Assembly: GCA_020349885.1 (NCBI GenBank)
Contig: CP070701.1
Coordinates: forward strand, 32,498-96,497
Direction: 5' to 3'
DNA: 64,000 nt
Source of the DNA: Acidobacteriota bacterium
GTDB taxonomy: Bacteria; Acidobacteriota; G020349885
In this document: positions 20,918 to 62,963 of the stretch, one piece after another
Position numbering within the stretch: the first letter of the stretch is position 1
Layout: every line of letters begins with the position of its first letter
Position numbers and translations under genes: made by a program
Notes under the pieces: generated by a model
What the model saw: only the letters and a program-made list of their open reading frames with translations
Databases searched by the model: none
What the model was told of the DNA's origin: nothing

Positions 20918-20952
20918 CAACGTCGGCGGTGCGCGGATAGAGTGGTATATAG

Positions 20953-24880: not shown

Positions 24881-26797
24881 ATGGTGTACTTCATTTTGTT
24901 CTTTTCTTCAATCTTTCTTGTTGGCTTCACGGCGGTCGTTTTAACATACCGTCCCGTTCACTCTAAAAATCTTCCTGTCCTTTACGGAAGCGTCGCCGTT
25001 GGAAACGCGCTATCCGTATTTTTGCTTAATGGATTGTGTTACGGGATAGGCGTGGAAGGCGGCATGTGGGCCGCACCTGCAATGGGATTCGCTGTCTTTG
25101 CTTTGGCCTGGATGGCTTCTGGAAAATTTCGTGAAGAAACCAGGGCCATTTGGCGCCGTCTACAGGAAAAGACGGGGGCAAAGAGGAATCAGCAATACGG
25201 GGTCCTGTTTGCGGGGATTCTCATCGTGGGGTTCCTTGCGGCGATTGCCTTCTTTACGACCAGGCATGATGCAGAGGCCCACCATGCGCAATTGGCGACC
25301 ATTAGCATGGGGAATTTTCCGGCGATGTTTCCCTTTCAACCAGACCTCTCTCTTTTCTACCATTATGGCTTCGCACTTTTCGCGGCCTTTCCCTTTCGCG
25401 CGACGTCTTGGGATATAAACATCGTGGAGGACCTGTGCTTAACGTGGATCATGTTGGGCGCGGTACTGTCGGCGGTCAATTTCGTGAAAGTTTATTTTTC
25501 CGCCCGGCGAAAGGCTCAAATTATGGGATTGCTTTTTTATTTTTTCGGATACGGCCCTCTTGGAATTTGCGGCTTATTGTATTTTACGGGATTTTTTTTG
25601 GAGTGGCTTCCCGAGGTCTTGGGGCCCATTTCCGTGCTTTCTTATTCCAATTCATTCCTGCGCCGGGCGCCTGCCATGGCCTATGCAGTGCTGCCGACGT
25701 TCTTGTGGATGTTGCATCGATTCTGGGACACCCGCAAGCCCTGGCCTGCAGGACAGGCCTTGCTCCTGGTGGGCATTATGGCTTCGTTTGGGCTGCTTGC
25801 TGAGGAGGTGCCCATAATCACAGGGGCGGCAATCGTTTTGGTAGGATTGAAGGATTGGCTTAAGGGGCATATGCCTCTTACGAAGGTTGTGGTTTTGGGG
25901 GCGTTCTTGCTGCTATCGCTGCTTCTATGTCTGGGGCAGGGAGGTATGCCCACTTACGCCGCCCGCGCGCTGATCCAAGGTTCGGGGGAATTGGTGCCTG
26001 AGATGCAATCGGTCAAGCACTTTAACATAATATGGCCGCCCGGGGTGCCCGCGTACACGGGATACGGCCATGCCTTTTCTCCCACGCTCTGGCGCGTTTT
26101 GTTGTTGGAATTCGGCCCTCTGTTTCTGTTGTTCCCATACTTCTTATGGCCGGGGCGAGATTCATTCCGACAGCTGATCTATACGATGTGCTGGATCGGG
26201 TTGCTTGTTCCGGCGTTTTTCACGTGGGGGCAAACCTCGTTCGATATGCAGCGGTTCTCGCAGATCTCCCTCTATCTGGCGTATCTGTTTGCCGGACGAT
26301 TTTTGGCGGATGTCTTGGAGGCAAGAGTTGCTTCTCGCCGCCTTCGGACTCTGGGATATGTCGCCTTAGCGGTGTTTGTGACGCTGACGCCTGTTCTCCA
26401 TGGTGCGCATCGCATCGCAAGAAAGCAGACCCATGTTTGGGTGGCCCATGAAGCCGAGGCCATCGTGCAAGACGCGAAAATGTATATTCCTCCTTTAAGT
26501 CGCGTCGTAACCTTGGCGCGCTTAAACTACCCCTTGCACCGTGAAGGCTATTTCGCGCTTTACGATACCCCTCCCGATCTATTTTATCTAACCGGTATGC
26601 TGAGAGGCCGACACGACGCTTCGCTTGAAAAACTCTCGCGTGAGAAATGCTTGGATTGGCGACCGGATTTCCTCCTGGTGCCTTTTCGGGTAGCGGAGCA
26701 TTTTCAGAAAACAGTGCCCGAATCCAGGGCCACGCCTCTTCGCACGTATATTTACAAAGGAGAACCCCTGCATTTGATAAAGATCGATTTCCCCTGA
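24881..26797 (+). CDS. Large polytopic membrane protein (possible GT-C-fold glycosyltransferase-like), hypothetical; in low-GC island
   Basis: A 638-aa ORF with 12 or more predicted TM helices and a C-terminal soluble domain. It has no catalytic motif I can name. Codon composition is markedly lower-GC than flanking genes. Confidence 0.5.
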   Translation: MVYFILFFSSIFLVGFTAVVLTYRPVHSKNLPVLYGSVAVGNALSVFLLNGLCYGIGVEGGMWAAPAMGFAVFALAWMASGKFREETRAIWRRLQEKTGAKRNQQYGVLFAGILIVGFLAAIAFFTTRHDAEAHHAQLATISMGNFPAMFPFQPDLSLFYHYGFALFAAFPFRATSWDINIVEDLCLTWIMLGAVLSAVNFVKVYFSARRKAQIMGLLFYFFGYGPLGICGLLYFTGFFLEWLPEVLGPISVLSYSNSFLRRAPAMAYAVLPTFLWMLHRFWDTRKPWPAGQALLLVGIMASFGLLAEEVPIITGAAIVLVGLKDWLKGHMPLTKVVVLGAFLLLSLLLCLGQGGMPTYAARALIQGSGELVPEMQSVKHFNIIWPPGVPAYTGYGHAFSPTLWRVLLLEFGPLFLLFPYFLWPGRDSFRQLIYTMCWIGLLVPAFFTWGQTSFDMQRFSQISLYLAYLFAGRFLADVLEARVASRRLRTLGYVALAVFVTLTPVLHGAHRIARKQTHVWVAHEAEAIVQDAKMYIPPLSRVVTLARLNYPLHREGYFALYDTPPDLFYLTGMLRGRHDASLEKLSREKCLDWRPDFLLVPFRVAEHFQKTVPESRATPLRTYIYKGEPLHLIKIDFP

Positions 26798-26909: not shown

Positions 26910-26915
26910 TATAAT
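26910..26915 (+). promoter_or_regulatory. Perfect TATAAT -10 element upstream of the M1-like peptidase gene (weak -35)
   Basis: GTAGTATAATGA lies about 165 nt upstream of the ATG at 27079. It is preceded by a GTTGC...GCAAC hairpin plus a T6 tract at 26826-26856, a possible terminator for the preceding gene. Confidence 0.3.
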
Positions 26916-27078
26916 GATTCCGGGAGCAAAAGAGTAAAGGCCTGGCAAACAAGCCCTGCGATGAAAATTTTCTTTCTAATGCTTTATCGCGGCAAGATGC
27001 GTTGAAAACGCCCGTCCCATCGGCTACCATAGTCGCGTGCCGTTCCTAGACATAGACACCATAAGCAAGGAGACAACG

Positions 27079-29790
27079 ATGATTCGCAAACGCATGCTTT
27101 GCCGAACCGGTATCCTTTTTGCCGCCGCCGTCGTTTTGGCGGCCTTTTCCACGCCCGCTCAGGAAGGGGCCAAGAGCGACCTGGAGCGCCTCTACGGCGA
27201 GTTCAACGAAATTTCTCTCGATACCTCCCAGGGCTTCGCCGTCAAGAATTTTCTGCTCGAGCACGACAGCTTCTCCGCGAAGCTCGAGGACGGAATCATT
27301 TTCTTTTCAAACAAGATCGGCGGCCAGTTCTACGCCGCCGTTTTCTTGGGCAAGGGGGAGATGACTCTACGCATCCCCGAGCCCGTCAAAGACATGCAAT
27401 TCAGAAATATCCTCTGGGGGCGGGAGAGTGAGGACCCCTCAAGGAAGGGAATCAAGGGCCAGCCTTTTACGGAAGCCTTCCTTGTGGTGCCGCCGGACAT
27501 TAAGGCGCCGGTCAATTACGAGCTTCTTTCCGGAAAGTTCAAGATACCCGGCTCGGAAGTGGCGGCGGTTACGGAAGGCGGGCTTCTCGAAAAGCACAGC
27601 GAGCGCGCGCAGGAGCTTTTTGCGCAGCAAGCGGGCCCTCCGGACTGGAGGGAGATTCCCGTGAGAACTATGGTATGGCGCCATTTGAACAATTTCACTA
27701 ACGAGTATTTCGAATTCCGGGCGAACACCAAGGATTTTCAATGGGTGCGGTTTCTATTTAATCCGGACTTCGAGCGCGAGTGCCGTGCGGGGCGCATCTC
27801 CTATGAAGCGGCCTATGGACGCCAGCAAGTGATTGAAAAAGGAGGCGTGTCATGGGATCGCCGGAAAGACTATCGACAAGCGGAGGGCGGCTGGACGGCG
27901 AACCTGCGCGAGCGCCTACACGAAGACAGGCGCACCGTCGAGATTTTTCATTACGATATGGGCATCACCGTTGAGAAGGCGGCTTTGCTTCTCAAGAATA
28001 AGATGACGATGCGTATCCGGCCGCGAAGAGAGGGAGCACGCTGCGCAAGGTTCGACTTCCTCTCACATTGGCAAGACGATAAGCGCAAGGCCTTTCTCAT
28101 AAAGAAATGCACGGGTGCCGAGGGAAACTCCCTTCCCTTTTTGCACGACAAGGACGAACTCTTAGTGGACATGGGAAAAACCATGGAGATAGAAAAAGAT
28201 TACAGCATTACTTTGGAATACGAAGCCAAATTTATCAAGCCACTCGACAATATCGTCAAACCGGATTCGATCGATCCCGTTGAGTGGCAAAGAATTCTTC
28301 AAGATTTCTTGCAATTCTTACCAGCCCAGCCCTCCACGCATACTCTTCTCAACACCTACCCGTGGTACCCCCAAGCAGGCGGCATGGAAAACGAAGCCAC
28401 CTACGATGTCAAAGTCAGAGTGCCTTTCGAATTTATTGCTGCGGCTTCCGGGCACACGGTAGAACGCTGGCAGGAGGAACCCGATTACGAGTGCCTGCAT
28501 ACGCGGCTCGATAAGCCGGTGAGCTTCTTCGCCATTATTTTCGGACGCTATCAGATGCTTTCGGGGAAGTTATACGGCGAGGAGAAAAGCCGGGCCGAGG
28601 CGTATGACGACGAGGAAGAGGAGGAAGGGGAAGAGGATGAAGAGATAAACGTAGAGGAATACGCAAAGAAATGGGGCGATCCCACTATTTACGTCTATGC
28701 GCTTGACCGTCAGCAACGAGCGCTTCCCGCCATGCTGGACAAGGCGCGCAACATGCTTCACTATTATAACGAATTTTTTCAAAGGCCCTTTCGCTACGAG
28801 GAATTGGACATTGTTCAAATGGGTTTCTTTATGGGGTTCGGACAAGCGCCTCCGGGACTGGTGCAGCTTACGGGAGAAGCTTTTCTGCGTCAAACAGAAC
28901 TTGCTGCCCACTTTGAATGGATAGATCCCGGATTTCTCGAAGGCTTCCTTGCCCATGAGCTGGGTCATGAATGGTGGCCGGATATCACGGGCATGCGCAA
29001 CTATGAACAGGACGCGTGGTTGAGCGAGGGATTTGCGGAGTATGCGTCGGGGCTTTACTTGGAGAACACCAATGGCTTTAAGGCCCTATGCGAGGACGCT
29101 GAGGCGCAGTGGCTCAAAGTAGGGGGCTACGGAGGAGGAGGAATCCTTGACGTAAAACCTTACGAACAAGGCTCCATCTACTCTCCCGGGGCGAGCTACG
29201 AAACCCAGGTGTATCAAAAAGGCCCCTACGTTCTCCACATGCTCCGTAGCATCCTCGGCCCAGAGCTTTTCCAGGCGCTTCTGCAGCGGTTTATGAAAGA
29301 TTTCGCGGGGAAACAGCCCGTGACGCCCGACTTCATTGACACCGTCAGGAAGGTCATCTTCGAATATGTGAAGGGCGATCCGTTTAAGACCTACCGTGAA
29401 AACGGAACACCGTTATCAGAGTGGTCGCCGGCGCACCGGGACGAGTTCCTCCGCATGGGCGATTTCTACAAGAATCTCGACGCCTGGTTCGAGGACTGGT
29501 ATATCGACCCGGGCCACGCGGAGATCCACTTCTCGTGGAGCGCGCAAAAGGACACCGAAAAGGGAGGTTACGTTTTTACGGGCCGCATCCGGCAGGACCC
29601 CAAGGAATTCAAGATGGTGCTCGCGCCCATCATTCTGCGCTTCAAGAAAGATTCGTCGCTCGTGCGGTTCTTTGTCGATAAACCGGATTACGAATTCCGG
29701 CGACGCGTTGACAAAGAGCCGACCGAAGTGGTCTTCGACGAATTCAAGATGCTCGCGGCCGAGGTGACGGTTGAAGCGGCTCAGCCGTAG
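27079..29790 (+). CDS. Secreted gluzincin (M1-like, MA-clan) zinc metallopeptidase, atypical
   Basis: The Zn-binding motif HELGHEWW...(19)...EGFAEYAS has the HEXXH-X18-19-E spacing of the M1/gluzincin family, but I found no recognisable GAMEN exopeptidase motif. An N-terminal signal peptide (ILFAAAVVLAAFSTPAQE) and an acidic DDEEEEEGEEDEE stretch are present. A strong SD (AAGGAG) lies before the ATG at 27079. Confidence 0.7.
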   Translation: MIRKRMLCRTGILFAAAVVLAAFSTPAQEGAKSDLERLYGEFNEISLDTSQGFAVKNFLLEHDSFSAKLEDGIIFFSNKIGGQFYAAVFLGKGEMTLRIPEPVKDMQFRNILWGRESEDPSRKGIKGQPFTEAFLVVPPDIKAPVNYELLSGKFKIPGSEVAAVTEGGLLEKHSERAQELFAQQAGPPDWREIPVRTMVWRHLNNFTNEYFEFRANTKDFQWVRFLFNPDFERECRAGRISYEAAYGRQQVIEKGGVSWDRRKDYRQAEGGWTANLRERLHEDRRTVEIFHYDMGITVEKAALLLKNKMTMRIRPRREGARCARFDFLSHWQDDKRKAFLIKKCTGAEGNSLPFLHDKDELLVDMGKTMEIEKDYSITLEYEAKFIKPLDNIVKPDSIDPVEWQRILQDFLQFLPAQPSTHTLLNTYPWYPQAGGMENEATYDVKVRVPFEFIAAASGHTVERWQEEPDYECLHTRLDKPVSFFAIIFGRYQMLSGKLYGEEKSRAEAYDDEEEEEGEEDEEINVEEYAKKWGDPTIYVYALDRQQRALPAMLDKARNMLHYYNEFFQRPFRYEELDIVQMGFFMGFGQAPPGLVQLTGEAFLRQTELAAHFEWIDPGFLEGFLAHELGHEWWPDITGMRNYEQDAWLSEGFAEYASGLYLENTNGFKALCEDAEAQWLKVGGYGGGGILDVKPYEQGSIYSPGASYETQVYQKGPYVLHMLRSILGPELFQALLQRFMKDFAGKQPVTPDFIDTVRKVIFEYVKGDPFKTYRENGTPLSEWSPAHRDEFLRMGDFYKNLDAWFEDWYIDPGHAEIHFSWSAQKDTEKGGYVFTGRIRQDPKEFKMVLAPIILRFKKDSSLVRFFVDKPDYEFRRRVDKEPTEVVFDEFKMLAAEVTVEAAQP

Positions 29791-29827
29791 TTCTGAAACC
29801 GTACGCACGGCATGCCGAAGAAAGAGA

Positions 29828-31417
29828 ATGGAAATCTTTAGAGTAATTTTCCCGCGGGTCTGCCGACTGGTCGGAGCGGCTGGGCCGAAGCATGGGCGGC
29901 CTTCCCGGCGGTTTTCCTTCATCCTGGCGCTCGTCCCCGCCCTTGTCTTCGTCCTCGCCGGCCCTGCCGCCGCCCGGGCGCCGGCTTCCTTTGTCCCTTC
30001 GGAGCTGCTGGAGGAGGACTGGTACGCGCTCTCGTGGAACGGCCAGCACGCGGGCTACATACATTCCGTGGCCGAGCAGGGGCGCGACTCAGGGAAGCGG
30101 GAGTGGATCCGCAGCCGGACGAGGGTGGAGATGGCGCTCTCGCGCATGGAGATGGAGATTCGCGTCACGATGGGAGGGGAGCTCTGGGAAGTTCCCGGCA
30201 AGGGCCTGCGTACCTTTTCGTTCGTGATGCAGATGGGCCCGCTCGGGGAGATGCGCTACGCGGGCGAGCGCAAGGGCGACGTGTTGCGCATCACGGGCAC
30301 GTCGGCAGGAAAGTCCTACGAGCGCGAGATTCCCTGGCAGGAGGGAACGCTTTCGCCCTTCGAGGAGATGCGGCGCTTCCGGGAACGCTTTCGAGAAGGC
30401 CGCAAGACGTTCTCCCACATGGTGTTCAATCCCGAGCAGCAGCGCGCCATGGTGACGACTTACACGCTGGAGGAAGAGGAAGAGGTTTCGCTTTTGGGCG
30501 CGCGCAAGCGTCTTCTGCGTGTGCGCGTGGAGCAGGACATTCTGCCCGGCGTCGTCTCCTACGCTTGGGTGGACAAGGAGGGTCGTATACACAAGATGCT
30601 CCTTCCGATGGGGGGGCTCGCTACGGTCGAGGCGGTACGGACCACGAAGGAGCGCGCGATGTCCCCCACGGGGCCCGCCGAGGTGCTCGCGCAGACGCTC
30701 CTTGTGCCCGACGTGCCCGTGAAGAACCCGCTCAACGCCACGCGCATCGTCTACCGCATCGGCTTTCGCGACCCGGAAAAGATTCCCTCCTTTCCCCCGG
30801 ACGGCCGGCAGACCGTGCGCGTCCGGAAGGGCTCGGTTCTCACGCTCGAGGTGAAGCGCCCCGAAGCGCCACCCCGGGCGCGTGGGGAAGAGTCGGCGCC
30901 GCCAGAGGAAAAATACCTATCTCCGAACCCTCACCTTCAGTCGGACGACGAGGCGCTGCGCAAAGTCGCGGCCGAGGTCACGCGCGACCAGAGGAGACCC
31001 TGGGAGAAGGCCTCGGCGCTCACGCACTGGGTCTACCGCCGTATCGAAAAGAAGGACCTGGGAGTGGGCTTCGCTTCCGCGAAGGACGTGTTCGAGAATC
31101 CGCGCGGCGACTGCACCGAGCATGCCGTGCTCCTTGCGGCCATGCTTCGCGCCGTGGACATTCCATCGCGCGTGGCCGCGGGGCTCGTCTACTCGCCCGT
31201 GCTCGGCGCGTTCGGCTACCACATGTGGACGGAGGCTTTCGTCGAAAACAAGTGGCATGCCCTCGATGCGATGTTCGACGAAACGCTCCTCGATCCCACG
31301 CATTTGAAGTTCACGGACTCTGCGCTCGACGAGGGTATCGACCCCGCGTTTATGAGCGAGTTTATTGCGTTCCTTCAAAACATGGAAATCAGGATCGTCA
31401 CGGTGAACCATGAATAA
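29828..31417 (+). CDS. Transglutaminase-like cysteine-protease-superfamily protein, secreted/membrane-anchored
   Basis: A C-terminal transglutaminase core Cys-His-Asp triad context is present (NPRGDCTEHAVLLAAMLRAVDIPSRVAAGLVY...GYHMWTEAFVENKWHALDA). The N-terminus has a hydrophobic signal/TM segment (FSFILALVPALVFVLAGPAAARA). The start is ambiguous between 29771 and 29828. Confidence 0.7.
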   Translation: MEIFRVIFPRVCRLVGAAGPKHGRPSRRFSFILALVPALVFVLAGPAAARAPASFVPSELLEEDWYALSWNGQHAGYIHSVAEQGRDSGKREWIRSRTRVEMALSRMEMEIRVTMGGELWEVPGKGLRTFSFVMQMGPLGEMRYAGERKGDVLRITGTSAGKSYEREIPWQEGTLSPFEEMRRFRERFREGRKTFSHMVFNPEQQRAMVTTYTLEEEEEVSLLGARKRLLRVRVEQDILPGVVSYAWVDKEGRIHKMLLPMGGLATVEAVRTTKERAMSPTGPAEVLAQTLLVPDVPVKNPLNATRIVYRIGFRDPEKIPSFPPDGRQTVRVRKGSVLTLEVKRPEAPPRARGEESAPPEEKYLSPNPHLQSDDEALRKVAAEVTRDQRRPWEKASALTHWVYRRIEKKDLGVGFASAKDVFENPRGDCTEHAVLLAAMLRAVDIPSRVAAGLVYSPVLGAFGYHMWTEAFVENKWHALDAMFDETLLDPTHLKFTDSALDEGIDPAFMSEFIAFLQNMEIRIVTVNHE

Positions 31418-37256: not shown

Positions 37257-40208
37257 TTGGCGAAAAGCTGGGAGGCATTCCGCGCGCGTTTCTCCGGCAA
37301 CTACGGCCGGGCCGCCGACATTTACCTTCGCGCGGGCAAGTATAAAAAGGCGTTGAGCATGTACATTCGCGCGGGGCTCCTCGACCAGGCCGCGCGACTG
37401 GCCATGCAGATGGGCGACAACGCCTACGCCGTGCAGCTTTTTATCAAGGACAGAAACTACCGCGCCGCGGGTGACCTGTACGCGAAAATGGGCCGCTTCT
37501 CGCAGGCCGTGGAGTGCTTCATGCAGTCGAAGGAACTGGGGCACGCGGCGCGGCTTTTGGAAAAAAACGGCCAGTTCGAACGCGCCGCCGCCATCTGGGT
37601 CCAGGCGCGGCGCAAGGACCTGGCGGCGGCCGCCCTGGTCAAGGGGAATCTCCCCGACCAGGCGGTGCCCCTTCTCGAAGAACTCCTGGAGCAGATGACC
37701 CGCGACTCCGTCTCCCTCGACGACTACGGAGCGCAGATTCGGAAATACGCGGGCTATTGCGGCCGCTACTATAGGGACAAGGGGCGCCCCTTCCAGGCCG
37801 CGACGTGCTTTGAGCGCGCGGGCATGAAGGAGGAAGCCGCGCGGGCCCATGCGCAGGCGGGCAATCCCCAGCGCGCCGTCAGGATTTACTACGACCTGCG
37901 GGAATGGGAAAAAGCAGCCGAGCTCATCGGCACGTTTCCCGCTCCCCCCGCAGAGGCCGAAGCCTACGGCGACGCCCTGCTTCAGGCGGGCGAGTACGAG
38001 CGCGCCGGGCAGATGTTCGAGAAGGGCAGCCTTCCCTTCCGCGCGGCGGACTGCTACGAGGAGATCGGGGAATACGAGCGCGCCGCGGAGATTTACCTTC
38101 GGAAAAGCGACCCTCTGCGCGCGGCCGAACTCTTTGCGCAGGCCGACGACTTCGCGCAGGCAGCCGTCCTCTTTGCAAAGGGCGGAAACTTCGCCCATGC
38201 CGCGCAGTGCTTCGAGCGTCACGGCAACAAGGAAGAGGCCGCCAGCGCGTATCTAAAGGGGAAAAAGCCGCTTGAAGCCGCCAAGCTGTATCTGGCCCTT
38301 CAAAACGAGCGGAAGGCCATCGAGGCGCTCCAGTCGGTTCCGCCCGAGTCGCCCGGCTACCAGGACGCGGCCTTTTATCTGGCCCAGCTTTTCACGAAAA
38401 CGGGACGCTTCGAGCTCGCCCTCGAAAAGTTCAAGGAGGCCATCGGGCGTAGCCCGCTCGGGGTGGACACGGTGGACAAGTACTACCGCCTGGCCATCTG
38501 CCTCGAGGAGATGAAAAAATTCGCCAAGTCGCGCGAGATCTATAACCGCATCCTTTCCGTCCAGTACGGCTACGCCGACGTGGAGGCCCGTCTCGAGGCG
38601 CTCGGAAAAAGGGAGGCGGAGGTGCCGGTGCCCGAGGAGACGCTCTCCGTGAGCCGCAAGCAGGTCTCGCTGACCTTCTCCGGCCGCTACGAGATTACCG
38701 ACGCGCTGGATGAGACGACCTACAAGGGATGGGACTCGAGCCTGGGCCGGGTGGTGGCCATCCGCCGGTACGACATGGCCGAGGTGGTGCAGCAGTGGCC
38801 CGGCTACGAGGATCGCCTGCGCGAGGTGGCGGCGCTCTCGCATCCCAACATCGTCAGCCTCTACGATACCGCCACCCAGGATGAAAGTCTCTTTCTTTTT
38901 CACGAGTACCTGAGCGGCACGAGCCTGCGGCAGATTCTCGCCACGCGCAAGTCGATGCCGCCCGCGACCGGCATGGTGATCGGAACGCAGATCGGACGCG
39001 CCCTGGAATGCGCGCACTCGAAGGACGTCGTCCACGGCGCCCTTCGGCCGGAATGCATCATTATCTCGGGCGAGAACGAGGTGAAGGTTTCGGAGTTCGC
39101 GCTGGGCGCTGTACCGGCCGCCTACGAGCCTCCCGAGGCCGCGCAGGGGCGCGCCCCCTCGAAGGAAAGCGACCTCTATCAGTTTGCCCTCGTCCTGCAC
39201 GAGATGCTTGCGGGAAAACTTCCGGAAAAGGGAAAGCTGTCTCTGCCCGCGGGACTCTCTCCGTTGCTCTGCGAGCTCATCGGGAAGGCGCTTGCGCCCC
39301 GCCCCGAGGCGCGCCCCCGCACGGCGCAGGAGTTTTTGAGAGTGTTCTCGGAGGCGGGAATCATGCCGGGCGTCGTCATATCGTCCCGCTATGAAATTCT
39401 CGAGGAACTCGGCACCGGCGGCATGGGAAAGGTCTACAAGGCGCTCGATCGCGAGCTCGGCGAGGAGATTGCGCTGAAGTCCCTGCACAGCGATTTAATG
39501 CGCGACACCGAGGCGCGGGAGCGCTTCCTGCGGGAAATTAAGCTTCTGCGCAAAATCACGCATCCCAACGTGGTGCGGGTCCACGACATCGGGCGCTGGG
39601 AGGACCACGAGTTTCTCACGATGGAATACCTCGACGCCGAGAACCTGTTCGACCATGTCAAGCGGCGCGGGCCTTTCGCCGCGCCTGCCGGCGCTCAACT
39701 GGCCGTCCAGATTTGCGACGGCCTCGAGCAGGCGCATCGCCACAAAATCATCCACCGCGACCTCAAGCCCCAGAACATCGTCGTCACGGCCGACGGGACG
39801 CCGAAAATTTTGGACTTCGGCATCGCGCGGGCGGGCGGCGAGGGCAAGGAGCTCACGGCCACGGGCCAGCTCATCGGCTCGCCCAAGTACATGTCGCCGG
39901 AGCAGATTCTGGGCAAGGCGGTGGACGTTCGAAGCGACCTATATTCCCTCGGAATTGTTTTCTATTACATGTTCGGCGGCCGCGAACCTTTTGAGGGAGA
40001 AACGGTCGAGGCCGTCGTTATGAGGCAGATCGAAAAAATGCCCCCTCCGCTCGCGTCGTTCGTGCCCCAATTCCCCGCCTGGCTCGACGAGGTCATCGCC
40101 AAGGTGTTGCGCAAGAATCCCGCGGAGCGCTACGCTTCGGCCGCTTCCCTGCGCGCGGCATTCGAGGAAGGGCTGAAACGCCAGGAAGGGCAAGCCGGCG
40201 TACGGTGA
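37257..40208 (+). CDS. Multidomain protein: Ala-rich ~13-residue helical-repeat (TPR-like) array, a degenerate pseudokinase domain and a canonical Hanks-type Ser/Thr protein kinase domain
   Basis: The N-terminal roughly 430 aa are repeats of the form FAQADDFAQAAVL/FAKGGNFAHAAQC. The middle domain is kinase-like but lacks the G-loop and has VAIRR, HGALRPECI and SEFALG in place of VAIK, HRDLKPEN and DFG. The C-terminal domain has intact GTGGMGKVY, IALKSL, HRDLKPQNIV, DFGIA and SPEQ motifs. The start is a TTG at 37257, so it is uncertain. Confidence 0.8.
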   Translation: MAKSWEAFRARFSGNYGRAADIYLRAGKYKKALSMYIRAGLLDQAARLAMQMGDNAYAVQLFIKDRNYRAAGDLYAKMGRFSQAVECFMQSKELGHAARLLEKNGQFERAAAIWVQARRKDLAAAALVKGNLPDQAVPLLEELLEQMTRDSVSLDDYGAQIRKYAGYCGRYYRDKGRPFQAATCFERAGMKEEAARAHAQAGNPQRAVRIYYDLREWEKAAELIGTFPAPPAEAEAYGDALLQAGEYERAGQMFEKGSLPFRAADCYEEIGEYERAAEIYLRKSDPLRAAELFAQADDFAQAAVLFAKGGNFAHAAQCFERHGNKEEAASAYLKGKKPLEAAKLYLALQNERKAIEALQSVPPESPGYQDAAFYLAQLFTKTGRFELALEKFKEAIGRSPLGVDTVDKYYRLAICLEEMKKFAKSREIYNRILSVQYGYADVEARLEALGKREAEVPVPEETLSVSRKQVSLTFSGRYEITDALDETTYKGWDSSLGRVVAIRRYDMAEVVQQWPGYEDRLREVAALSHPNIVSLYDTATQDESLFLFHEYLSGTSLRQILATRKSMPPATGMVIGTQIGRALECAHSKDVVHGALRPECIIISGENEVKVSEFALGAVPAAYEPPEAAQGRAPSKESDLYQFALVLHEMLAGKLPEKGKLSLPAGLSPLLCELIGKALAPRPEARPRTAQEFLRVFSEAGIMPGVVISSRYEILEELGTGGMGKVYKALDRELGEEIALKSLHSDLMRDTEARERFLREIKLLRKITHPNVVRVHDIGRWEDHEFLTMEYLDAENLFDHVKRRGPFAAPAGAQLAVQICDGLEQAHRHKIIHRDLKPQNIVVTADGTPKILDFGIARAGGEGKELTATGQLIGSPKYMSPEQILGKAVDVRSDLYSLGIVFYYMFGGREPFEGETVEAVVMRQIEKMPPPLASFVPQFPAWLDEVIAKVLRKNPAERYASAASLRAAFEEGLKRQEGQAGVR

Positions 40209-40215: not shown

Positions 40216-40941
40216 TTGCGCCTTTCGATCGTGGTGCCCGTTTACAACGAAGCCCGCGCCGTTGGGTCCGTCCTGGAAAAACTTCTTGCTTTGGAGACGG
40301 CCTGTCCGGAAAAGGAGATTCTCGTTGTGGACGACGGCTCGACCGACGAAACGCGCGCCGAGGTGGAGCGAGTGGCCGAGCGGCACGCCGGCGTGCGGCT
40401 GCTGAGTCATGACTCGAACCGCGGAAAGGGGACCGCGGTTCGGACCGCTATTGCGCAGGCCCGGGGCGGCATTGTGGTCATGATAGACGCCGACGGGGAG
40501 TTGGATCCCGACGACTTGCCCGCCGTCGTTGCCCCGCTTGTGGAGGGCCGAGCGGATGCGGTCAACGGTTCGCGCTTTTTGGCGGACGCAGGGTCGAGCG
40601 TGCCGTGGCTCAACTACGCGGCCAATCGCTTGCTTACCCTGACGTTGAATATCCTCTACGGCGCGCGCCTCACCGACGTCGAGTCGGGGCTTAAGGCCTT
40701 TCGCCGGGAGGCCATCCTGGGGCTGCGCCTTCGTGCCAGACGGTTTGAATTCGAAGCCGAAGTGACGGCGAAGCTCTTGCGGGCGGGGAGGCGCATCGAG
40801 GAAACGCCTGTGCGTTACCGCGCCCTGACCCAGGGTCATGAGAAAACCATCGGATGGCGCGACGGCGTCCAGGCGCTCTGGGTCTTGGCCAAGTGCCGCG
40901 TGCTGCCGCGTCGGTGCATTCTACGAGAGCACGCGCCATGA
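40216..40941 (+). CDS. Family-2 glycosyltransferase (polyprenyl-phosphate sugar synthase-like)
   Basis: GT2 motifs are present (LSIVVPVYNEA; ILVVDDGSTDET; DxD in MIDADGE). Length is 241 aa. The start is TTG. Confidence 0.8.
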   Translation: MRLSIVVPVYNEARAVGSVLEKLLALETACPEKEILVVDDGSTDETRAEVERVAERHAGVRLLSHDSNRGKGTAVRTAIAQARGGIVVMIDADGELDPDDLPAVVAPLVEGRADAVNGSRFLADAGSSVPWLNYAANRLLTLTLNILYGARLTDVESGLKAFRREAILGLRLRARRFEFEAEVTAKLLRAGRRIEETPVRYRALTQGHEKTIGWRDGVQALWVLAKCRVLPRRCILREHAP

Positions 40942-42197: not shown

Positions 42198-44363
42198 ATG
42201 GAAAATTTCAGTGCGGTCGGCAGGCGCCTGACATCCCGCGTCGCGGCGGGGCTTGCCGTCAATGTCTGTTTGATGGGAGTTTCTTTCGCTGCGGCCGAGC
42301 CTGCTTCTCCGTCGGTCAAAAAAAGCCTCTCCACGGTGGAGGTCGTGACGAAAGCGGAAGAAGCCCTGCTTGCGGCCCCGGAAAACATGGTGCTCTATAT
42401 CGACTGGGTCGAGGCCATGGATACGTGGGCCCGGGCGGACGGCTTCGACGTGTGGCAGATTGGCGAGGCGTTCCTCAAGGAGCAGGTTCATCCCCTGTTT
42501 CCCCGCTCCCATCCCGATCTTGGGCTCGGGCTTATACTCCTCAAAATTGAGCGCTACGACGAGGCGATTGGCCTGCTGCGGCCCGTGTTCGAGAGTGCGC
42601 CGAACCGCGCGATAGCGGCCATGGTGTTCGCCCAGGTTTTTATCCTCGGGAAGCGGCCCGACCTGGGAATCCAGTATTTCGAGCGCAGAGTTGCCCACCG
42701 CCCGAGCGGCGGCGCATGGTACGGACTGGCGATTCTCCACGAGAAGAGACGCCCCCTCGAAGCCGTCGAGGCCTACCGGCAAGCGGCGGAAGCCTTCCGG
42801 GCCGCGGGCGAGCTCGATTCGCAGGCGCATGCCCTGAACGATGAGGGCATTGTCCACCTTCGGCTCGGTGATCTCTCGAAGGCCAAAGAGCGGTTTGAAG
42901 AAGCGCTCGCGATTCGAGAGGGCCTCGAAGAATCCAAGGGCATACTTCATGTACTGAACAACTTGGTCCGCATTGAGCATCAAAGGGGGCGTTACGTCGA
43001 GGCGATCCGCCTGAACGAGCGCACCCTTGCGCTCCAGGAAAAGCTCGGCGACCGAAAGGACGCCGCGTTGTCGTGCGCGAACGTCGGCGTCGCCTACACG
43101 AATCTGGGCGACCTCGAGCGCGCCCTGGCGTACCAGCGCCGCGCCGTTGAGAGCTTTCGCGCGCTGGGCGAGCTTCCCAACGCCGCTTCGACTCTCAACA
43201 TGATGGGCATGGCCTACAAAAGCCTCGGCGACTTCGAGCGTGCGCGCAGGGTGCACCGTGAGGCGCTGCGTCTGTACGAATCGTCCGGGGAGCCGTGGGG
43301 CGTGGCGCACACGCTTGCGAGCCTGGGCTCCTTCCACGCCGCGTGGGGCGGCACGGAGCGCGCGGAGGAGTACTACCTTAGCTCGCTCCGCGCCGCGGAG
43401 CGGCTCGGCGACCGGAGCAGCGAGGCGCTCGTGTACGGCCAACTGGGCCGGCTCGCGCTCAAGCGCGGCGACCCCGAGGAGGCGGAGCGGCGCTTCCGTG
43501 ACGCTCTGGACATTGCCGAGGCCCTCGGAAACAAGCGCGACGCCGAAGCATCACTTCGAGGCATCTTCTCCGCGCTCGCCGTACGCGGTGACGCGGATGC
43601 AGAGGAGATGTCGGCCCTCGCTGGTCGCGCCGAGGCAATGGCCCGGGAAACCAGAAATTCTCAGGCTCTTGTCTCCGCGTTGCAGAACCGTGCCTTCCTT
43701 GAGCGGAAACAGGGCGACCGCGACGCGGCTTTTCGCTCCTCGCAGGAAGCCCTGGCCCTCGCGCAGCGCATCCGGGCGTTGGATTCGGCCCGGATATCGC
43801 ACCATCTGCTCGGTGAGCTTGCCCTCGGCGAGTCGGGGCTTGCCCGTCCTACCGACCCCTGGCGTGTCCGCCAGGACAAGCTTGACGGGCTTGCCGCCTC
43901 GTCCGGGCCCGGGGGGGGCCGGAGCGGAAATTTTTCAGAAGCTGCCGCCCATTACCGCGCGGCCCTGAAAATTTCGGAAAGCACCGCCGGGCTTTTGGAA
44001 GGCGTCCAGGAGCGCGGCTACTTTCTTCCCTCGTGCCTTTCGTCGTACGAAGCGCTTGCGGAGACGCTCGTCGCCCTCTGCCCTGCGGCTCCGGCGGCCC
44101 GCGAAACACCTGTCCTCCATGGCGCTGCAGAGGGAGGAAAAGCCCTGCTCAAGGAAGCCTTCGAAGCTGTCGAGCGCCGAAAAGCGCGGGCGCTTCGAGA
44201 CGAGCTGGGTCCGTTTCTCTCGACGCCCCGGGCTCTCCCGGAAGCGCTTTTGGAAAAGCGCCTCCTGCTCGAGGCGCGCCTCCGGTGGCTTCGGCAGGCG
44301 CTACGTGACGAGGTTGCCGCTTCGAGCGTTGGGGCAGGCGAATCTCCGCCCCCGGAACCGTAA
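42198..44363 (+). CDS. Secreted TPR-repeat protein (hypothetical)
   Basis: A signal peptide (VNVCLMGVSFAAAEP) is followed by 10 or more 34-residue TPR-like units (…LGDLERALAYQRRAVESFRALGE…). I see no catalytic domain. Confidence 0.6.
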   Translation: MENFSAVGRRLTSRVAAGLAVNVCLMGVSFAAAEPASPSVKKSLSTVEVVTKAEEALLAAPENMVLYIDWVEAMDTWARADGFDVWQIGEAFLKEQVHPLFPRSHPDLGLGLILLKIERYDEAIGLLRPVFESAPNRAIAAMVFAQVFILGKRPDLGIQYFERRVAHRPSGGAWYGLAILHEKRRPLEAVEAYRQAAEAFRAAGELDSQAHALNDEGIVHLRLGDLSKAKERFEEALAIREGLEESKGILHVLNNLVRIEHQRGRYVEAIRLNERTLALQEKLGDRKDAALSCANVGVAYTNLGDLERALAYQRRAVESFRALGELPNAASTLNMMGMAYKSLGDFERARRVHREALRLYESSGEPWGVAHTLASLGSFHAAWGGTERAEEYYLSSLRAAERLGDRSSEALVYGQLGRLALKRGDPEEAERRFRDALDIAEALGNKRDAEASLRGIFSALAVRGDADAEEMSALAGRAEAMARETRNSQALVSALQNRAFLERKQGDRDAAFRSSQEALALAQRIRALDSARISHHLLGELALGESGLARPTDPWRVRQDKLDGLAASSGPGGGRSGNFSEAAAHYRAALKISESTAGLLEGVQERGYFLPSCLSSYEALAETLVALCPAAPAARETPVLHGAAEGGKALLKEAFEAVERRKARALRDELGPFLSTPRALPEALLEKRLLLEARLRWLRQALRDEVAASSVGAGESPPPEP

Positions 44364-48329: not shown

Positions 48330-48484
48330 GGCGCTATCCTACCATGGGGAAGGGTTCGGAAGGTGCGGCAGGTACGGAGGGTGCGTAAGCATGGGGTAAG
48401 CGCGGTTGCCTTTCCGCACCTTCTGCACTGTTATTACCATCAGCTCTTCGGCGACGACGAATATCCATAAACTTTATCGGCGGC

Positions 48485-49438: not shown

Positions 49439-49469
49439 CCCGAAACAGTATAAAGCAATGAACGACTAA

Positions 49470-60810: not shown

Positions 60811-61683
60811 ATGAAGCGAAACAAGAACAACCTGACCATCGCGCTCCAGAAAGACGGCCGCCTCACCGAGCCCAGCCTGAACCTCCTGCGGGGCATGGGG
60901 CTGGAGTTCGAGGTGGACGCGCGGCGGCTTCTCGCCCCGTGCCGCAATTTCGACCTCGACATTCTCTTCCTGCGCTCGGGCGATATTCCTGAGCACATCG
61001 CCGCGGGCGCCGTGGACCTGGGCGTCGTGGGCGAAAACGTCCTCTTCGAGCACGGGGCGCGCCTTCGCGTCTTGGAGCGCCTGGGGTTCGGCCAATGCCA
61101 GCTCATGATCGCCGTGCCCAAGGCGAGCGGCCTTCGCAGGCTCCGGGACCTTCGCGGGCTTCGAGTCGCGACGACGTATCCGCGCTCCCTGAAGAAATTC
61201 CTCGCGCGTAAGAAGGTCGCGGCGAGCATCGTGGAGATTTCCGGCTCCGTGGAGGCCGCGCCGGCGCTCGGCATCGCCGACGCCGTCTGCGACTTGGTCG
61301 CGACGGGAAGCACGCTTCGCATCAACGAGCTCGTGCCGCTCGAGACGGTGTTTTCTTCGGAGGCGGTGCTGGCCGCGAACGGCGTCGCCCCGCGCGGGCG
61401 CAAGGGCGCCCAGATCGAGCGCCTGCGCATGCGCGCGCGGAGCGTCCGCACGGCCCGCCGCGCCAAGTACATCATGCTCAACGCCCCCGAGTCGGCGCTC
61501 CCCCGCATCAAGCGCGTCATTCCGAGCCTCAAGAGCCCGACGGTCATCCCACTCGCCGAGCCAGGCATGATCGCCGTCCACTCCGTGGTCGACGAAGAGG
61601 TGCTCTGGGACGTGATCGAAAAAATCAAGCGCCTCGGAGGCTCCGAGATTCTCGTGATGTCCATCGAGAAGGAGATTCCATGA
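60811..61683 (+). CDS. hisG: ATP phosphoribosyltransferase, long form (HisG with C-terminal regulatory domain)
   Basis: The HisG core is present (LTIALQKDGRLTE...DLGVVGENVL...CDLVATGSTLR). A roughly 80-aa C-terminal regulatory domain follows. Confidence 0.9.
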   Translation: MKRNKNNLTIALQKDGRLTEPSLNLLRGMGLEFEVDARRLLAPCRNFDLDILFLRSGDIPEHIAAGAVDLGVVGENVLFEHGARLRVLERLGFGQCQLMIAVPKASGLRRLRDLRGLRVATTYPRSLKKFLARKKVAASIVEISGSVEAAPALGIADAVCDLVATGSTLRINELVPLETVFSSEAVLAANGVAPRGRKGAQIERLRMRARSVRTARRAKYIMLNAPESALPRIKRVIPSLKSPTVIPLAEPGMIAVHSVVDEEVLWDVIEKIKRLGGSEILVMSIEKEIP

Positions 61684-62963
61684 ATTTTTCCTGGAAGCGT
61701 TTTAAGGAACTGAGCGGGCCGGAGCGCCGGGAGCTTCTCGACCGCACGCCTTCGGATGAAGAGGCCGAGGCGGCCGTCCGCCCCATCCTCGACGCGGTGG
61801 CGCGCGAGGGGGACGGTGCGGTGCGTGCGTGGAGCGAAAAGCTCGACGGGGTGCGCCTCGAATCGCTCCGGGTGCCTGAAGAGGAGATTTCCCGCGCTGC
61901 GGACGCCATGCCGAAGGCGTTTTTCGACGCGCTCGAAACCGCGCGCCGCAATATAGAAACTTTTCACACCGCGGTAAAGCCCCCCTCCGAGGTGGCGGCC
62001 GCGCCGCGGGACGGGGTGGAGCTGCGCCGCTTGTGGCGGCCCTTCGAGCGCGTGGGCTTCTACGTCCCCGGAGGCGGCGCGTCGTATCCCTCGACCGTGC
62101 TGATGCTCGCGGTGCCGGCGCGCGTCGCCGGGTGCCGCGACGTGGCGCTCGCCTCGCCGCCGGACAGGGAGGGGCGCGTCGCGCGGGCGACGCTTGCGGC
62201 CGCCCGCTTCGCGGGTGTTGAAGAAATGTACCGCATCGGCGGGGCGATGGCCGTCGGCGCTTTCGCCTACGGAACGCCGAGCGTGCCCGCCGTAGAGAAG
62301 GTATTCGGCCCCGGCAGCCGGTACGTGGACGCCGCCAAGCGCTTGGTGGCCGACCGCACGGCCGTGGACCTGCCTGCCGGCCCGTCGGAGGTTCTCGTGC
62401 TCGCCGACGAGTCGGCCGAGCCCCGCTTCTGCGCCGCCGACCTCCTCTCGCAGGCCGAGCACGGCCCCGACTCGGTCGCCGTCCTCGTGACCACGAGCGA
62501 GCGCGTCGCGCGCGAGACCGCCTCCGAGGTCGCACGGCAGCTTGAGAGGAGTCCCAGGCGGGAAATTCTGGAAGCCGCGCTGCGGCGCATGAGACTGCTC
62601 GTCGTCGACTCGGTCGACGAGGCCGTCGCTCTCGCAAACGATTTCGCCCCCGAGCACCTGGTCCTCACGGTCGAGGCCGGGGACGAGGTCCTCGGCAAGG
62701 TGCGGTGCGCGGGCTCGGTGCTCCTGGGCCCCTACTCGCCCGTCGCGGCGGGGGACTACGCCGCCGGAATCAACCACGTGCTTCCGACGGGCGGGGCCGC
62801 GCGCACCCGGAGCGCGCTCTCCGTCCTGGACTTCGGACGCATGATGCAGGTTACTCGCATCTCGCGGAGCGGCCTCGAGTCCCTGCGCGGCGCCATTGTG
62901 GCCCTGGCCGAGACCGAGACGCTCGCCGCCCACGCCGAAGCCGTAAAGGAGCGCTTCCGATGA
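61680..62963 (+). CDS. hisD: Histidinol dehydrogenase
   Basis: HisD signatures are present (FYVPGGGASYPSTVLM; SQAEHGPDS; the GDY...INHVLPTGGAAR Zn-site region). Confidence 0.92.
   Translation: MNFSWKRFKELSGPERRELLDRTPSDEEAEAAVRPILDAVAREGDGAVRAWSEKLDGVRLESLRVPEEEISRAADAMPKAFFDALETARRNIETFHTAVKPPSEVAAAPRDGVELRRLWRPFERVGFYVPGGGASYPSTVLMLAVPARVAGCRDVALASPPDREGRVARATLAAARFAGVEEMYRIGGAMAVGAFAYGTPSVPAVEKVFGPGSRYVDAAKRLVADRTAVDLPAGPSEVLVLADESAEPRFCAADLLSQAEHGPDSVAVLVTTSERVARETASEVARQLERSPRREILEAALRRMRLLVVDSVDEAVALANDFAPEHLVLTVEAGDEVLGKVRCAGSVLLGPYSPVAAGDYAAGINHVLPTGGAARTRSALSVLDFGRMMQVTRISRSGLESLRGAIVALAETETLAAHAEAVKERFR

What the first reader, a model, noticed from the sequence alone, without database searches (positions are those of the whole stretch)
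37257..40208. Helical-repeat scaffold fused to a tandem pseudokinase-kinase pair
A single 983-aa ORF combines an unusual Ala-rich repeat array, a degenerate kinase-like domain and an apparently active Hanks-type Ser/Thr kinase. The repeat array has units of about 13 residues, for example FAQADDFAQAAVL / FAKGGNFAHAAQC / FERHGNKEEAASAY. These are shorter than 34-residue TPRs. The degenerate domain has no Gly loop and has lost VAIK (to VAIRR), HRD (to HGALRPECI) and DFG (to SEFALG). The active domain keeps GTGGMGKVY, IALK, HRDLKPQN, DFG and SPE. Tandem pseudokinase-kinase arrangements are known from eukaryotic JAKs, where the pseudokinase autoregulates. An equivalent intramolecular regulatory logic in a bacterial protein, plus a large protein-interaction scaffold and no TM segment, would be a noteworthy signalling architecture.
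Basis: seen in the sequence. Interest (0 to 1): 0.6.

Follow-up and report, generated by a model that had tools for sequence, protein, structure and literature searches.

The report
Helical-repeat, dead-kinase, live-kinase signalling protein
A real 983-residue gene of an uncultured Acidobacteriota bacterium encodes a long rod of 13-residue helical repeats, then a catalytically dead kinase copy joined directly to a live PknB-type Ser/Thr kinase; dozens of uncultured relatives share this layout, but I found no description of it in the literature I could search.

Summary
ORF 37257..40208 (+) has three parts. First is an array of 26 ten-residue helices with a 13-residue period, capped by ordinary TPRs. 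Second is a kinase-fold domain (K1) that has lost the Gly loop, the beta3 Lys, the HRD Asp, the catalytic Asn and the DFG Asp. Third is a canonical PknB-like RD kinase (K2).

It is not a fusion artefact. Residues 35-983 are identical to GenBank UCF80914.1 ("protein kinase", Acidobacteriota MAG). An exhaustive search found 34 clusters (50% identity) with the same layout. K1 lacks the catalytic triad in 45 of 45 family members, and K2 is canonical in 45 of 45. K1 is under purifying selection (dN/dS 0.21-0.41).

The K1-K2 junction has a fixed length, and AlphaFold predicts a defined K1:K2 packing (pTM 0.83). That packing does not superpose on TYK2 JH2-JH1 or EGFR-KDD. The repeat array travelled with a kinase or pseudokinase in every hit inspected.

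Best reading: a cytoplasmic sensor kinase in which the family's original kinase domain became a non-catalytic module coupling a protein-binding rod to a newly acquired kinase. JAK-like regulation is plausible but unproven.

Verdict: new variant of a known kind, moderately interesting.

The parts
37257..40208 (+). Whole gene: 983 aa from a TTG start, including the stop codon. No TM segment.
   Evidence: Residues 35-983 are 100% identical to GenBank UCF80914.1.
37359..37361 (+). Alternative ATG start (Met35), used in the GenBank annotation (949 aa).
   Evidence: Orthologue N-termini conserve aa 1-34, which favours the TTG at 37257.
37260..38333 (+). Array of 26 short helices (aa 2-359). The unit is about 10 helical residues plus a 3-residue turn, 13 residues in all. 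Exact 13-residue spacing occurs in three blocks (helix starts 16-133, 178-217, 260-351), broken by irregular junctions at aa 133-177 and 227-259.
   Evidence: Autocorrelation. AF2 secondary structure with pLDDT about 95. An Ala every 13 residues is invariant in orthologues. Family consensus is AAELYEKAGDFER, with Ala 91% at position 1 and Gly 61% at position 9. Pfam TPR_GEMI5, Clathrin, TPR_IF140-IFT172 and SNAP match. The profile hits IFT172, IFT144 and IFT140.
38352..38621 (+).
   Evidence: Pfam TPR_2 at aa 370-396 and TPR_6 at aa 409-433. OGT TPRs match at E = 1e-7. AF2 helices 368-455.
38625..38669 (+). Flexible linker between the repeat array and K1 (aa 457-471).
   Evidence: pLDDT below 50. 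Spacing varies from 13 to 39 residues among orthologues.
38682..39356 (+). K1, the pseudokinase domain (aa 476-700). Kinase fold with Arg503 in place of the beta3 Lys (nt 38763-38765), HGA593-595 in place of HRD (nt 39033-39041), Cys600 in place of Asn, EFA613-615 in place of DFG (nt 39093-39101), the Gly loop deleted and a short activation segment.
   Evidence: The catalytic triad is absent in 0/45 family members... that is, present in none of 45. dN/dS is 0.21-0.41.
39357..39389 (+). K1-K2 junction (aa 701-711), a fixed-length connector containing Pro704-Gly705.
   Evidence: There are 23-24 residues between Arg686 and Arg711 in 44 of 45 members, and Gly705 is present in 45/45. pLDDT is about 89-91. 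The x-Gly motif also occurs in front of related stand-alone kinases, so it belongs to K2's own N-terminal extension.
39390..40202 (+). K2, the canonical RD Hanks-type Ser/Thr kinase (aa 712-982). Lys741 (nt 39477-39479), HRD833-835 (nt 39753-39761), DFG853-855 (nt 39813-39821).
39855..39863 (+). Activation-loop Thr867-Ala-Thr869, the likely autophosphorylation sites.
   Evidence: They align with the T-x-T of the PknB activation loop. Thr867 is conserved in 43/45 members. This segment is the only low-pLDDT stretch of K2. The role of the PknB threonines is from my own knowledge.

Best explanation
The gene encodes a soluble, cytoplasmic, multidomain Hanks-type Ser/Thr kinase of an Acidobacteriota bacterium. 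It belongs to a conserved family not described in the literature I could search, with the layout [13-residue helix-turn solenoid + TPR cap]-[pseudokinase]-[PknB-like kinase].

Shown:
- K1 has the kinase fold but cannot catalyse by the canonical mechanism.
- This loss is a family-wide, selected state.
- K2 has every catalytic residue and a conserved activation-loop Thr.
- K1 and K2 are joined by a connector of fixed length and are predicted to pack in one defined geometry.
- The repeat array is tethered by a variable, disordered linker.

Inferred:
- The long solenoid is the input module. It binds a protein partner or self-associates.
- K1 occupies the position of the single kinase of the broader repeat-kinase family, and in a weakly supported tree it groups with those domains. 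I take it to be that family's original kinase, now a non-catalytic adaptor.
- K1 holds K2 in a particular state, either restraining or allosterically activating it, and transmits what happens at the solenoid.
- K2 then autophosphorylates on Thr867/Thr869 and phosphorylates unlinked substrates.

The logic is that of JAKs and plant tandem kinases, reached independently and with a different docking geometry.
For: Architecture: Pfam and PknB alignments. AF2 full-length model has pLDDT 91.5.

Conservation: 34 REP-pseudokinase-kinase clusters and 5 pseudokinase-kinase fragments among the best 150 representatives of a 1.84-billion-protein library. There were no REP-kinase-kinase proteins.

Catalytic state: K1 has the K/D/D triad in 0/45 members. 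K2 has K, E, D, N, D in 45/45 and Thr867 in 43/45.

Selection: dN/dS for K1 is 0.41 and 0.21. REP gives 0.28 and 0.22, and K2 gives 0.18 and 0.12. K1 keeps the structural residues: alphaF Asp 45/45, APE Glu 41, HRD His 40, Arg686 42.

Rigid pair: the K1-K2-only model has pTM 0.83. Junction length is fixed at 23-24 residues in 44/45 members, while REP-K1 spacing varies from 13 to 39.

Origin: K1 and K2 never form an exclusive clade (0/100 bootstraps), so this is not a recent internal duplication. K1 groups with the degenerate domains of the REP family (55%) and K2 with P0033 (63%).

REP is a kinase-specific module: all 120 best REP-profile hits carry Pkinase, and 118 of them are REP plus a lone pseudokinase. 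In 2 of 3 sampled, mutually syntenic loci, an active-looking kinase gene lies divergently beside it.

Possible interface: K1 keeps the equivalents of PknB Arg10 (28/31) and Asp76 (D31 + E9 of 45). In MviN and other bacterial kinases these positions serve back-to-back N-lobe dimerisation (PMC12599244).
Against: - No experiment exists. No coordinates or PAE could be read, so the K1:K2 interface is unknown.
- The MSA behind the pTM has only 45 sequences.
- Gene neighbourhood is not conserved among orthologues, so neither substrate nor input can be guessed.
- Tree support is weak (K1 monophyly 32%), and the grouping of degenerate domains may be long-branch attraction.
- The invariant Pro-Gly of the junction is a feature of K2-type kinases in general.
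- K1's dN/dS is higher than K2's, so constraint is relaxed.
- The kinase next to REP-pseudokinase genes is not specifically related to K2.
Confidence: 0.55

Rival explanations
1. K1 is a decoy or bait, as proposed for plant tandem kinase proteins. It mimics a kinase targeted by an invader such as a phage protein or a competitor's effector. Binding or modification of K1 releases K2, so the protein would be an immune sensor.
For: - The layout is the same as cytoplasmic, TM-less plant TKPs, for which a decoy role was proposed (PMC6170490).
- K1's active-site residues vary widely among members, with 28 different triads in 45 sequences.
- K2 matches PADLOC PD-T4-6 and mad6 kinase models and NCBIfam MADS6 (243 bits, below the 460 cut-off).
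Against: - The PADLOC matches cover only the generic kinase domain.
- The neighbours here and in orthologues are housekeeping genes, not defence islands.
- There is one copy per locus, and purifying rather than diversifying selection.
Confidence: 0.12
2. K1 is an evolutionary relic. It was the old catalytic domain, made redundant when K2 was added, and it persists only as a spacer without a specific function.
For: - Catalytic positions are highly variable.
- K1 has the highest dN/dS of the three parts against the closest relative (0.41).
- K1 monophyly is poorly supported.
Against: - It is retained at full length in 34 clusters that have diverged to about 30% identity.
- The structural core residues are nearly invariant.
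- dN/dS is well below 1.
- Junction length is fixed, and the fold and packing are predicted with confidence.
- A REP-plus-lone-pseudokinase family exists without any fused kinase.
Confidence: 0.12
3. K1 is not dead. It binds nucleotide or another ligand, or catalyses by a non-canonical route, as proposed for the beta3-Arg bacterial families ActPs2 and DYD or for WNK-type kinases.
For: The beta3 Lys is replaced by Arg here and in 15/45 members. It is Arg in essentially all REP-plus-lone-pseudokinase proteins, which also keep the Asn and the DFG Asp. Beta3-Arg pseudokinases are predicted to bind ATP in PMC12599244.
Against: In this protein the Gly loop is deleted, and the HRD Asp, the Asn and the DFG Asp are all replaced. 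No alternative conserved polar residue emerges across the 45 members.
Confidence: 0.08
4. The ORF is an assembly or frameshift artefact that joins two or three separate genes.
For: None found. One relative (P0002) does carry a frameshifted C-terminal tail, which shows that such errors occur in these metagenomes.
Against: - The identical protein is in an independent GenBank record on a 2.4-Mb contig.
- There are 34 clusters with the same continuous three-part layout from NCBI, JGI, ENA and Logan.
- Junction lengths are conserved.
Confidence: 0.01

Closest known systems
PknB/PknA/Stk1-type bacterial Hanks Ser/Thr kinases
   Different: No TM helix and no PASTA domains. The NCBIfam PknB_PASTA_kin score of 432 is below the 450 cut-off. 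It is preceded by a pseudokinase and a 455-residue solenoid.
JAK family JH2-JH1 (e.g. TYK2, PDB 4oli)
   Same: A pseudokinase lies immediately N-terminal to an active kinase in one chain, and a large N-terminal interaction module is present.
   Different: - These are Ser/Thr PknB-like domains, not Tyr kinase domains.
- There is no FERM-SH2 module.
- Only one domain superposes on 4oli (244 of 539 residues).
- Origin is independent.
Plant tandem kinase proteins (WTK1/Yr15, RPG1)
   Same: Cytoplasmic, without a TM segment, with one kinase and one pseudokinase. The two domains sit on separate tree branches, which fits the 'fusion' class of PMC6170490.
   Different: The order is reversed (WTK1 is kinase then pseudokinase). 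TKPs have no repeat array. The kinase lineages are unrelated. An immune role is not indicated here.
Described bacterial pseudokinase families (ActPs1-3 incl. MviN, GLW, CP1, DYD, DLHK)
   Same: A degenerate Hanks-fold domain conserved as a family. It has the beta3 Lys->Arg change seen in ActPs2 and DYD, and keeps the Arg10/Asp76-type N-lobe residues used by MviN for back-to-back dimers (PMC12599244).
   Different: - None of the seven is described as fused to an active kinase. The word 'tandem' is absent from both papers.
- Those families are actinobacterial, proteobacterial, firmicute or cyanobacterial, and most are membrane-anchored.
- TPRs are reported there only C-terminal to kinases.
- The ActPs2 insertions are absent here.
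TPR repeats and the TPR-like solenoids of IFT172/IFT144/IFT140 and the clathrin heavy-chain repeat
   Same: A stack of antiparallel helices. The unit consensus AAELYEKAGDFER resembles TPR helix A plus the GDY turn. The REP profile hits IFT172 (E = 4e-18), IFT144 (1e-15) and IFT140 (7e-12). Pfam Clathrin, TPR_IF140-IFT172 and TPR_GEMI5 score above their cut-offs.
   Different: - The period is 13 (one helix), not 34 (two different helices), and lag 13 is stronger than lag 26.
- There is no beta-propeller.
- In the hits inspected it is found only with kinase or pseudokinase domains.
- The Ala-rich repeat composition may inflate the scores.
EGFR kinase-domain duplication (PDB 9p9u)
   Same: Two kinase folds in one chain. 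It is the top Foldseek hit covering both domains.

Membership tests
Hanks-type (eukaryotic-like) protein kinase, active: K2 | Pkinase profile above threshold, plus Gly loop, beta3 Lys, alphaC Glu, HRD Asp, catalytic Asn and DFG Asp. | tested here: met
   260 bits against a 31.7 cut-off. All motifs are present and invariant in 45/45 members.
Hanks-type kinase fold: K1 | Scores as a protein kinase domain and folds as one. | tested here: met
   74.3 bits on its own. PknB matches at E = 1.6e-18. AF2 pLDDT is above 90 with the expected strand and helix order.
Pseudokinase (sequence definition) | Lacks at least one of VAIK-Lys, HRD-Asp and DFG-Asp. | tested here: met
   K1 has Arg503, Ala595 and Glu613. 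It also lacks the Gly loop and the Asn.
Pseudokinase (functional definition) | No phosphotransfer and, for some classes, no nucleotide binding. | not testable with these tools
   Needs purified protein.
Stk1/PknB PASTA kinases (NF033483) | Curated score cut-off, a TM helix and extracellular PASTA repeats. | tested here: not met
   432 bits is below the 450 cut-off, and only profile positions 3-273 are matched. There is no TM segment.
JAK-type pseudokinase-kinase unit | Pseudokinase N-terminal to kinase in one chain. | tested here: met
   K1 is aa 476-700 and K2 is aa 712-982.
JAK-type pseudokinase-kinase unit | JH2-JH1 docking geometry as in TYK2 (4oli), with a FERM-SH2 N-terminus. | tested here: not met
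JAK-type pseudokinase-kinase unit | The pseudokinase regulates the kinase intramolecularly. | not testable with these tools
   Only indirect evidence: pTM 0.83 for the pair and the fixed junction length.
Canonical TPR | A 34-residue unit of two distinct helices. | tested here: not met
   For aa 2-359 the period is 13, lag 13 is stronger than lag 26, and the helices are 10 residues long. The feature is met only for the cap at aa 366-455.
Clathrin / IFT-type TPR-like solenoid (Pfam PF00637, PF24762, PF23774) | Profile score above the gathering cut-off. | tested here: inconclusive
   Clathrin 42.5 against 29.6, TPR_IF140-IFT172 34.2 against 26.8, and TPR_GEMI5 51.8 against 33, all on the isolated N-terminus. 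IFT172 matches at E = 4e-18 with the family profile. The repeat composition may inflate scores, and a fold search restricted to this domain could not be run.
ActPs2 bacterial pseudokinases | beta3 Arg, HRD Asp->Asn, DFG deletion, a 32-residue and a roughly 250-residue insertion, a C-terminal TM segment, Actinobacteria. | tested here: not met
   Only the beta3 Arg is shared. K1 has deletions rather than insertions, has no TM segment, and comes from Acidobacteriota.
PD-T4-6 / MADS anti-phage kinases | Family-specific match beyond the kinase domain, plus a defence-gene context. | tested here: inconclusive
   The PADLOC hits (413 bits) cover only the kinase domain. NCBIfam MADS6 scores 243 against a 460 cut-off. 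No defence neighbours were found.

The most novel reading that the evidence does not exclude
This family is an independent bacterial version of the JAK and plant-TKP principle. The ancestral catalytic domain of a repeat-kinase protein was converted into a rigidly docked, non-catalytic regulator of a newly fused kinase. The abundant stand-alone 'repeat + pseudokinase' proteins would be the unfused form of the same two-component logic, working in trans with separate kinases. In addition, the 13-residue single-helix unit would be a distinct, kinase-dedicated class of alpha-solenoid, related at profile level to the IFT172/IFT140-type solenoids of eukaryotic transport coats.
Probability: 0.3. Interest if true: 0.65.

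Novelty: new variant of a known kind. Interest (0 to 1): 0.5.

Why it matters
Bacterial pseudokinases are almost unstudied. The 2025 atlas and review list seven families, and neither paper mentions a tandem arrangement with an active kinase.

This family is a natural, compact and soluble system in which a dead kinase is hard-wired to a live one. The related repeat-plus-pseudokinase proteins provide the unfused comparison. It would allow a direct test, in a tractable bacterial protein, of whether pseudokinase-mediated allostery evolved independently of eukaryotes.

It also adds an Acidobacteriota-centred family missed by surveys based on cultured genomes. The profile similarity of the repeat array to IFT-type solenoids is a lead for people tracing the prokaryotic roots of coat-protein solenoids.

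Tried and rejected
1. A word-indexed search with a profile of K1 alone returned only short generic kinases and none of the tandem family. It was uninformative.
Only one full-length relative emerged (L001, Candidatus Polarisedimenticolia).
3. Exact look-ups of the window protein and of P0376 found no contig. The TTG-start version is not in the gene index.
4. A conserved operon was sought in four orthologue loci and two close relatives. None was found. The GT2 gene 8 nt downstream is not conserved.
5. No FHA, PP2C or other signalling partners turned up in the ORFs scanned. Not every ORF in the window was scanned.
6. The afdb50 fold library was unavailable.
8. I first read the invariant Pro-Gly of the junction as a junction-specific signature, then rejected that. 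The motif also precedes related stand-alone kinases.
9. The kinase gene beside repeat-pseudokinase genes is not specifically K2-like, so the Rosetta-stone argument stays weak.
10. The paper on pseudokinases across the tree of life could not be retrieved.
11. Rfam found only one tRNA in the window.
Full report
**What is there.** The window carries one uninterrupted ORF at 37257..40208 on the + strand: 983 codons from a TTG start. Residues 35-983 are 100% identical to GenBank protein UCF80914.1, "MAG: protein kinase [Acidobacteriota bacterium]". That protein is encoded on a 2.4-Mb contig. So the window comes from an uncultured Acidobacteriota genome, and the gene is already deposited under a generic name.

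GenBank starts the protein at Met35 (nt 37359). However, orthologues of 31-34% identity conserve the preceding 34 residues. Two close relatives (90% and 81% identity) were called with the same TTG start. The longer form is therefore more likely. The protein has no hydrophobic segment: the highest 19-residue Kyte-Doolittle mean is 1.27.

**The repeat array.**
- Residue-identity autocorrelation over aa 1-365 peaks at lag 13, at 0.21. In 2000 shuffles the maximum over all lags averaged 0.117 +/- 0.007 and never exceeded 0.154.
- Lag 13 is stronger than lag 26, so the unit is a single helix, not a two-helix hairpin.
- The AlphaFold2 model was built with a 66-sequence alignment and has a mean pLDDT of 91.5. 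It shows 26 helices of about ten residues separated by three-residue turns (aa 2-359).
- Helix starts are exactly 13 apart in three blocks. Two irregular junctions break the array, and five longer helices (aa 368-455) follow.
- Across orthologues an Ala recurs invariantly every 13 residues.
- Pooled over 19 units and 66 proteins, the unit consensus is A-A-E-L-Y-E-K-A-G-D-F-E-R, with Ala 91% at position 1 and Gly 61% at position 9. Read by eye, and from my own knowledge of the consensus TPR, this resembles TPR helix A plus its "GDY" turn, used for every helix.
- The isolated N-terminus exceeds the Pfam cut-offs of TPR_GEMI5, Clathrin, TPR_IF140-IFT172 and SNAP. The cap matches ordinary TPR models and the OGT TPRs.
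- A family profile of the array hits the C-terminal solenoids of IFT172 (E = 4e-18), IFT144 (1e-15) and IFT140 (7e-12), besides engineered consensus TPRs.
- The Ala-rich repeat composition may inflate these numbers. A fold search restricted to this domain could not be run.

**The two kinase-like domains.** K1 (aa 476-700) scores 74.3 bits against Pfam Pkinase on its own (cut-off 31.7). It aligns with PknB at E = 1.6e-18. Relative to PknB it shows the following changes:
- a four-residue deletion that removes the Gly loop;
- Arg for the beta3 Lys, and Arg at the alphaC Glu position;
- HGA for HRD, Cys for the catalytic Asn, and EFA for DFG;
- an activation segment about 16 residues shorter.

**Not an artefact; a family.** A profile of nine full-length relatives was run exhaustively against 1.84 billion representatives. 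My domain and motif parsing of the best 150 hits gave:

| Layout | Clusters |
|---|---|
| repeat-pseudokinase-kinase (841-1195 aa) | 34 |
| pseudokinase-kinase fragments | 5 |
| repeat-kinase | 37 |
| kinase-repeat-kinase | 11 |
| repeat-kinase-pseudokinase | 3 |
| repeat-kinase-kinase | 0 |

In a 45-member alignment of the tandem family:
- K1 has the Lys/Asp/Asp triad in 0 of 45 members, with 28 different residue combinations.
- K2 has Lys, Glu, Asp, Asn and Asp in 45 of 45, and Thr867 in 43 of 45.
- K1 nevertheless keeps the structural residues of the fold: alphaF Asp 45/45, APE Glu 41, HRD His 40, and the alphaH-alphaI Arg 42.

Nei-Gojobori dN/dS against the 90%- and 81%-identical relatives was:

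| Part | vs 90% relative | vs 81% relative |
|---|---|---|
| K1 | 0.41 | 0.21 |
| Repeat array | 0.28 | 0.22 |
| K2 | 0.18 | 0.12 |

. K1 is therefore maintained by selection, under somewhat relaxed constraint. All named members are Acidobacteriota, including one Candidatus Polarisedimenticolia MAG.

**How the parts are connected.** The repeat-to-K1 linker (aa 457-471) has pLDDT below 50. Its length varies from 13 to 39 residues among orthologues.

The K1-to-K2 junction is different. There are 23 or 24 residues between the K1 alphaH-alphaI Arg and the first Arg of K2 in 44 of 45 members. The junction also has pLDDT of about 90. A model of aa 465-983 alone has pTM 0.83. Two independent 260-residue domains would be expected to give roughly 0.5, so AlphaFold predicts one defined K1:K2 packing.

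I could not read coordinates or PAE, so the interface is unknown. The invariant Gly705 and frequent Pro704 also precede related stand-alone kinases. They therefore belong to K2's own N-terminal extension.

**Origin.** In a neighbour-joining analysis with 100 bootstraps:
- K1 and K2 never form an exclusive clade, so the pair is not a recent internal duplication.
- K2 groups with the kinase of a single-kinase relative (63%).
- K1 groups with other degenerate domains of the repeat family (55%). This support is weak, and long-branch attraction is possible.

K1 occupies the position of the single kinase of the broader repeat-kinase family. The simplest reading is that the original kinase degenerated after a second kinase was added at the C-terminus.

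**The repeat array is a kinase-specific module.** A search with a profile of the array alone returned 120 best hits. All of them carry Pkinase. Of these, 118 are proteins of about 800 residues with a single pseudokinase. In that pseudokinase the beta3 residue is Arg, the alphaC Glu is replaced by Asp in all but 3 of the 118, and the HRD Asp is replaced by Ser, Cys, Thr or Gly. The Asn and the DFG Asp are kept.

In two of three sampled, mutually syntenic loci, an active-looking kinase gene lies divergently beside it. That kinase is not specifically K2-like.

**Context.** Neighbours here are housekeeping genes: acyl-CoA dehydrogenase, RidA, an aminotransferase, a GT2 glycosyltransferase, YchF, PBP2, PdxA and a 2-oxoacid dehydrogenase complex. 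The neighbourhoods of orthologues differ. No FHA, PP2C or defence genes were seen among the ORFs scanned. PADLOC PD-T4-6 and mad6 hits cover only the generic kinase domain.

**Comparison with what is known.** The bacterial kinase atlas (bioRxiv 10.1101/2025.01.12.632604) and the 2025 review (PMC12599244) define seven bacterial pseudokinase families.
- Neither text contains the word "tandem".
- TPRs are reported there only C-terminal to kinases.
- None of the family descriptions fits this protein.
- No curated NCBIfam model reaches its cut-off.

The review notes that the MviN pseudokinase forms a back-to-back N-lobe dimer through residues analogous to those of canonical bacterial kinases. K1 retains the equivalents of PknB Arg10 (28/31) and Asp76 (acidic in 40/45). 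This makes an N-lobe-mediated allosteric contact a reasonable guess, but an untested one.

Plant tandem kinase proteins and JAKs (PMC6170490) share the logic but not the ancestry, the order (for WTK1) or the geometry.

**Verdict.** The finding is a new variant of a known kind. It is a conserved, mostly Acidobacteriota family of soluble kinases, and I found no description of it in the literature I could search. In these proteins a selected pseudokinase is hard-wired between a distinctive 13-residue-repeat solenoid and a PknB-like kinase.

Noticed in passing
window 24000-30000: GC content drops to 0.54-0.57 against about 0.64 elsewhere. The segment holds ORF 24881..26797 (+, 638 aa, no Pfam hit) and ORF 27037..29790 (+, 917 aa, Peptidase_M1). 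It may be an acquired segment.
   Followed up: no
window 40216-40941 (+): A family-2 glycosyltransferase gene starts 8 nt after the kinase stop codon and is probably co-transcribed. It is not found next to orthologues.
   Followed up: partly
window 42198-44363 (+) and 44769-46889 (-): Two more TPR-rich proteins lie just downstream. One is a 721-aa TPR_12/TPR_10/MalT-like protein. The other is a 706-aa sulfatase with C-terminal TPRs.
   Followed up: no
proteins P0381-P0490, P0095-P0117 (not in the window); loci L087, L088: A large family of roughly 800-aa proteins consists of the same 13-residue-repeat array plus a single pseudokinase (beta3 Arg, HGS, DLG). They make up 118 of the 120 best array hits, and the named ones are Vicinamibacteria. 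In 2 of 3 syntenic loci a canonical kinase gene lies divergently adjacent.
   Followed up: partly
proteins P0232-P0371 (not in the window): The metagenomic protein library holds many multi-kinase proteins without the repeat array. P0265 (2911 aa) has nine degenerate kinase-like domains plus one canonical one. P0233, P0239 and P0243 have four degenerate plus two canonical domains. There are also 30 kinase-kinase proteins and 11 kinase-repeat-kinase proteins. Their organisms are unknown.
   Followed up: no
P0016, P0261, P0276, P0297 (not in the window): A minority of relatives have the opposite order: repeat array, active kinase, then pseudokinase.
   Followed up: partly
locus L086 5001-8564 (protein P0002): The 81%-identical relative has a roughly 230-residue low-complexity C-terminal tail that replaces the end of K2. 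It looks like a frameshift in that metagenome contig.
   Followed up: no
window 48474-50012 (-) and 60747-62993 (-): Both are long ORFs without any Pfam hit. The second overlaps the histidinol dehydrogenase gene on the other strand (61680..62963) and is probably not a gene.
   Followed up: no
window 20952-21023 (+): A single tRNA gene is the only Rfam match in the window.
   Followed up: no
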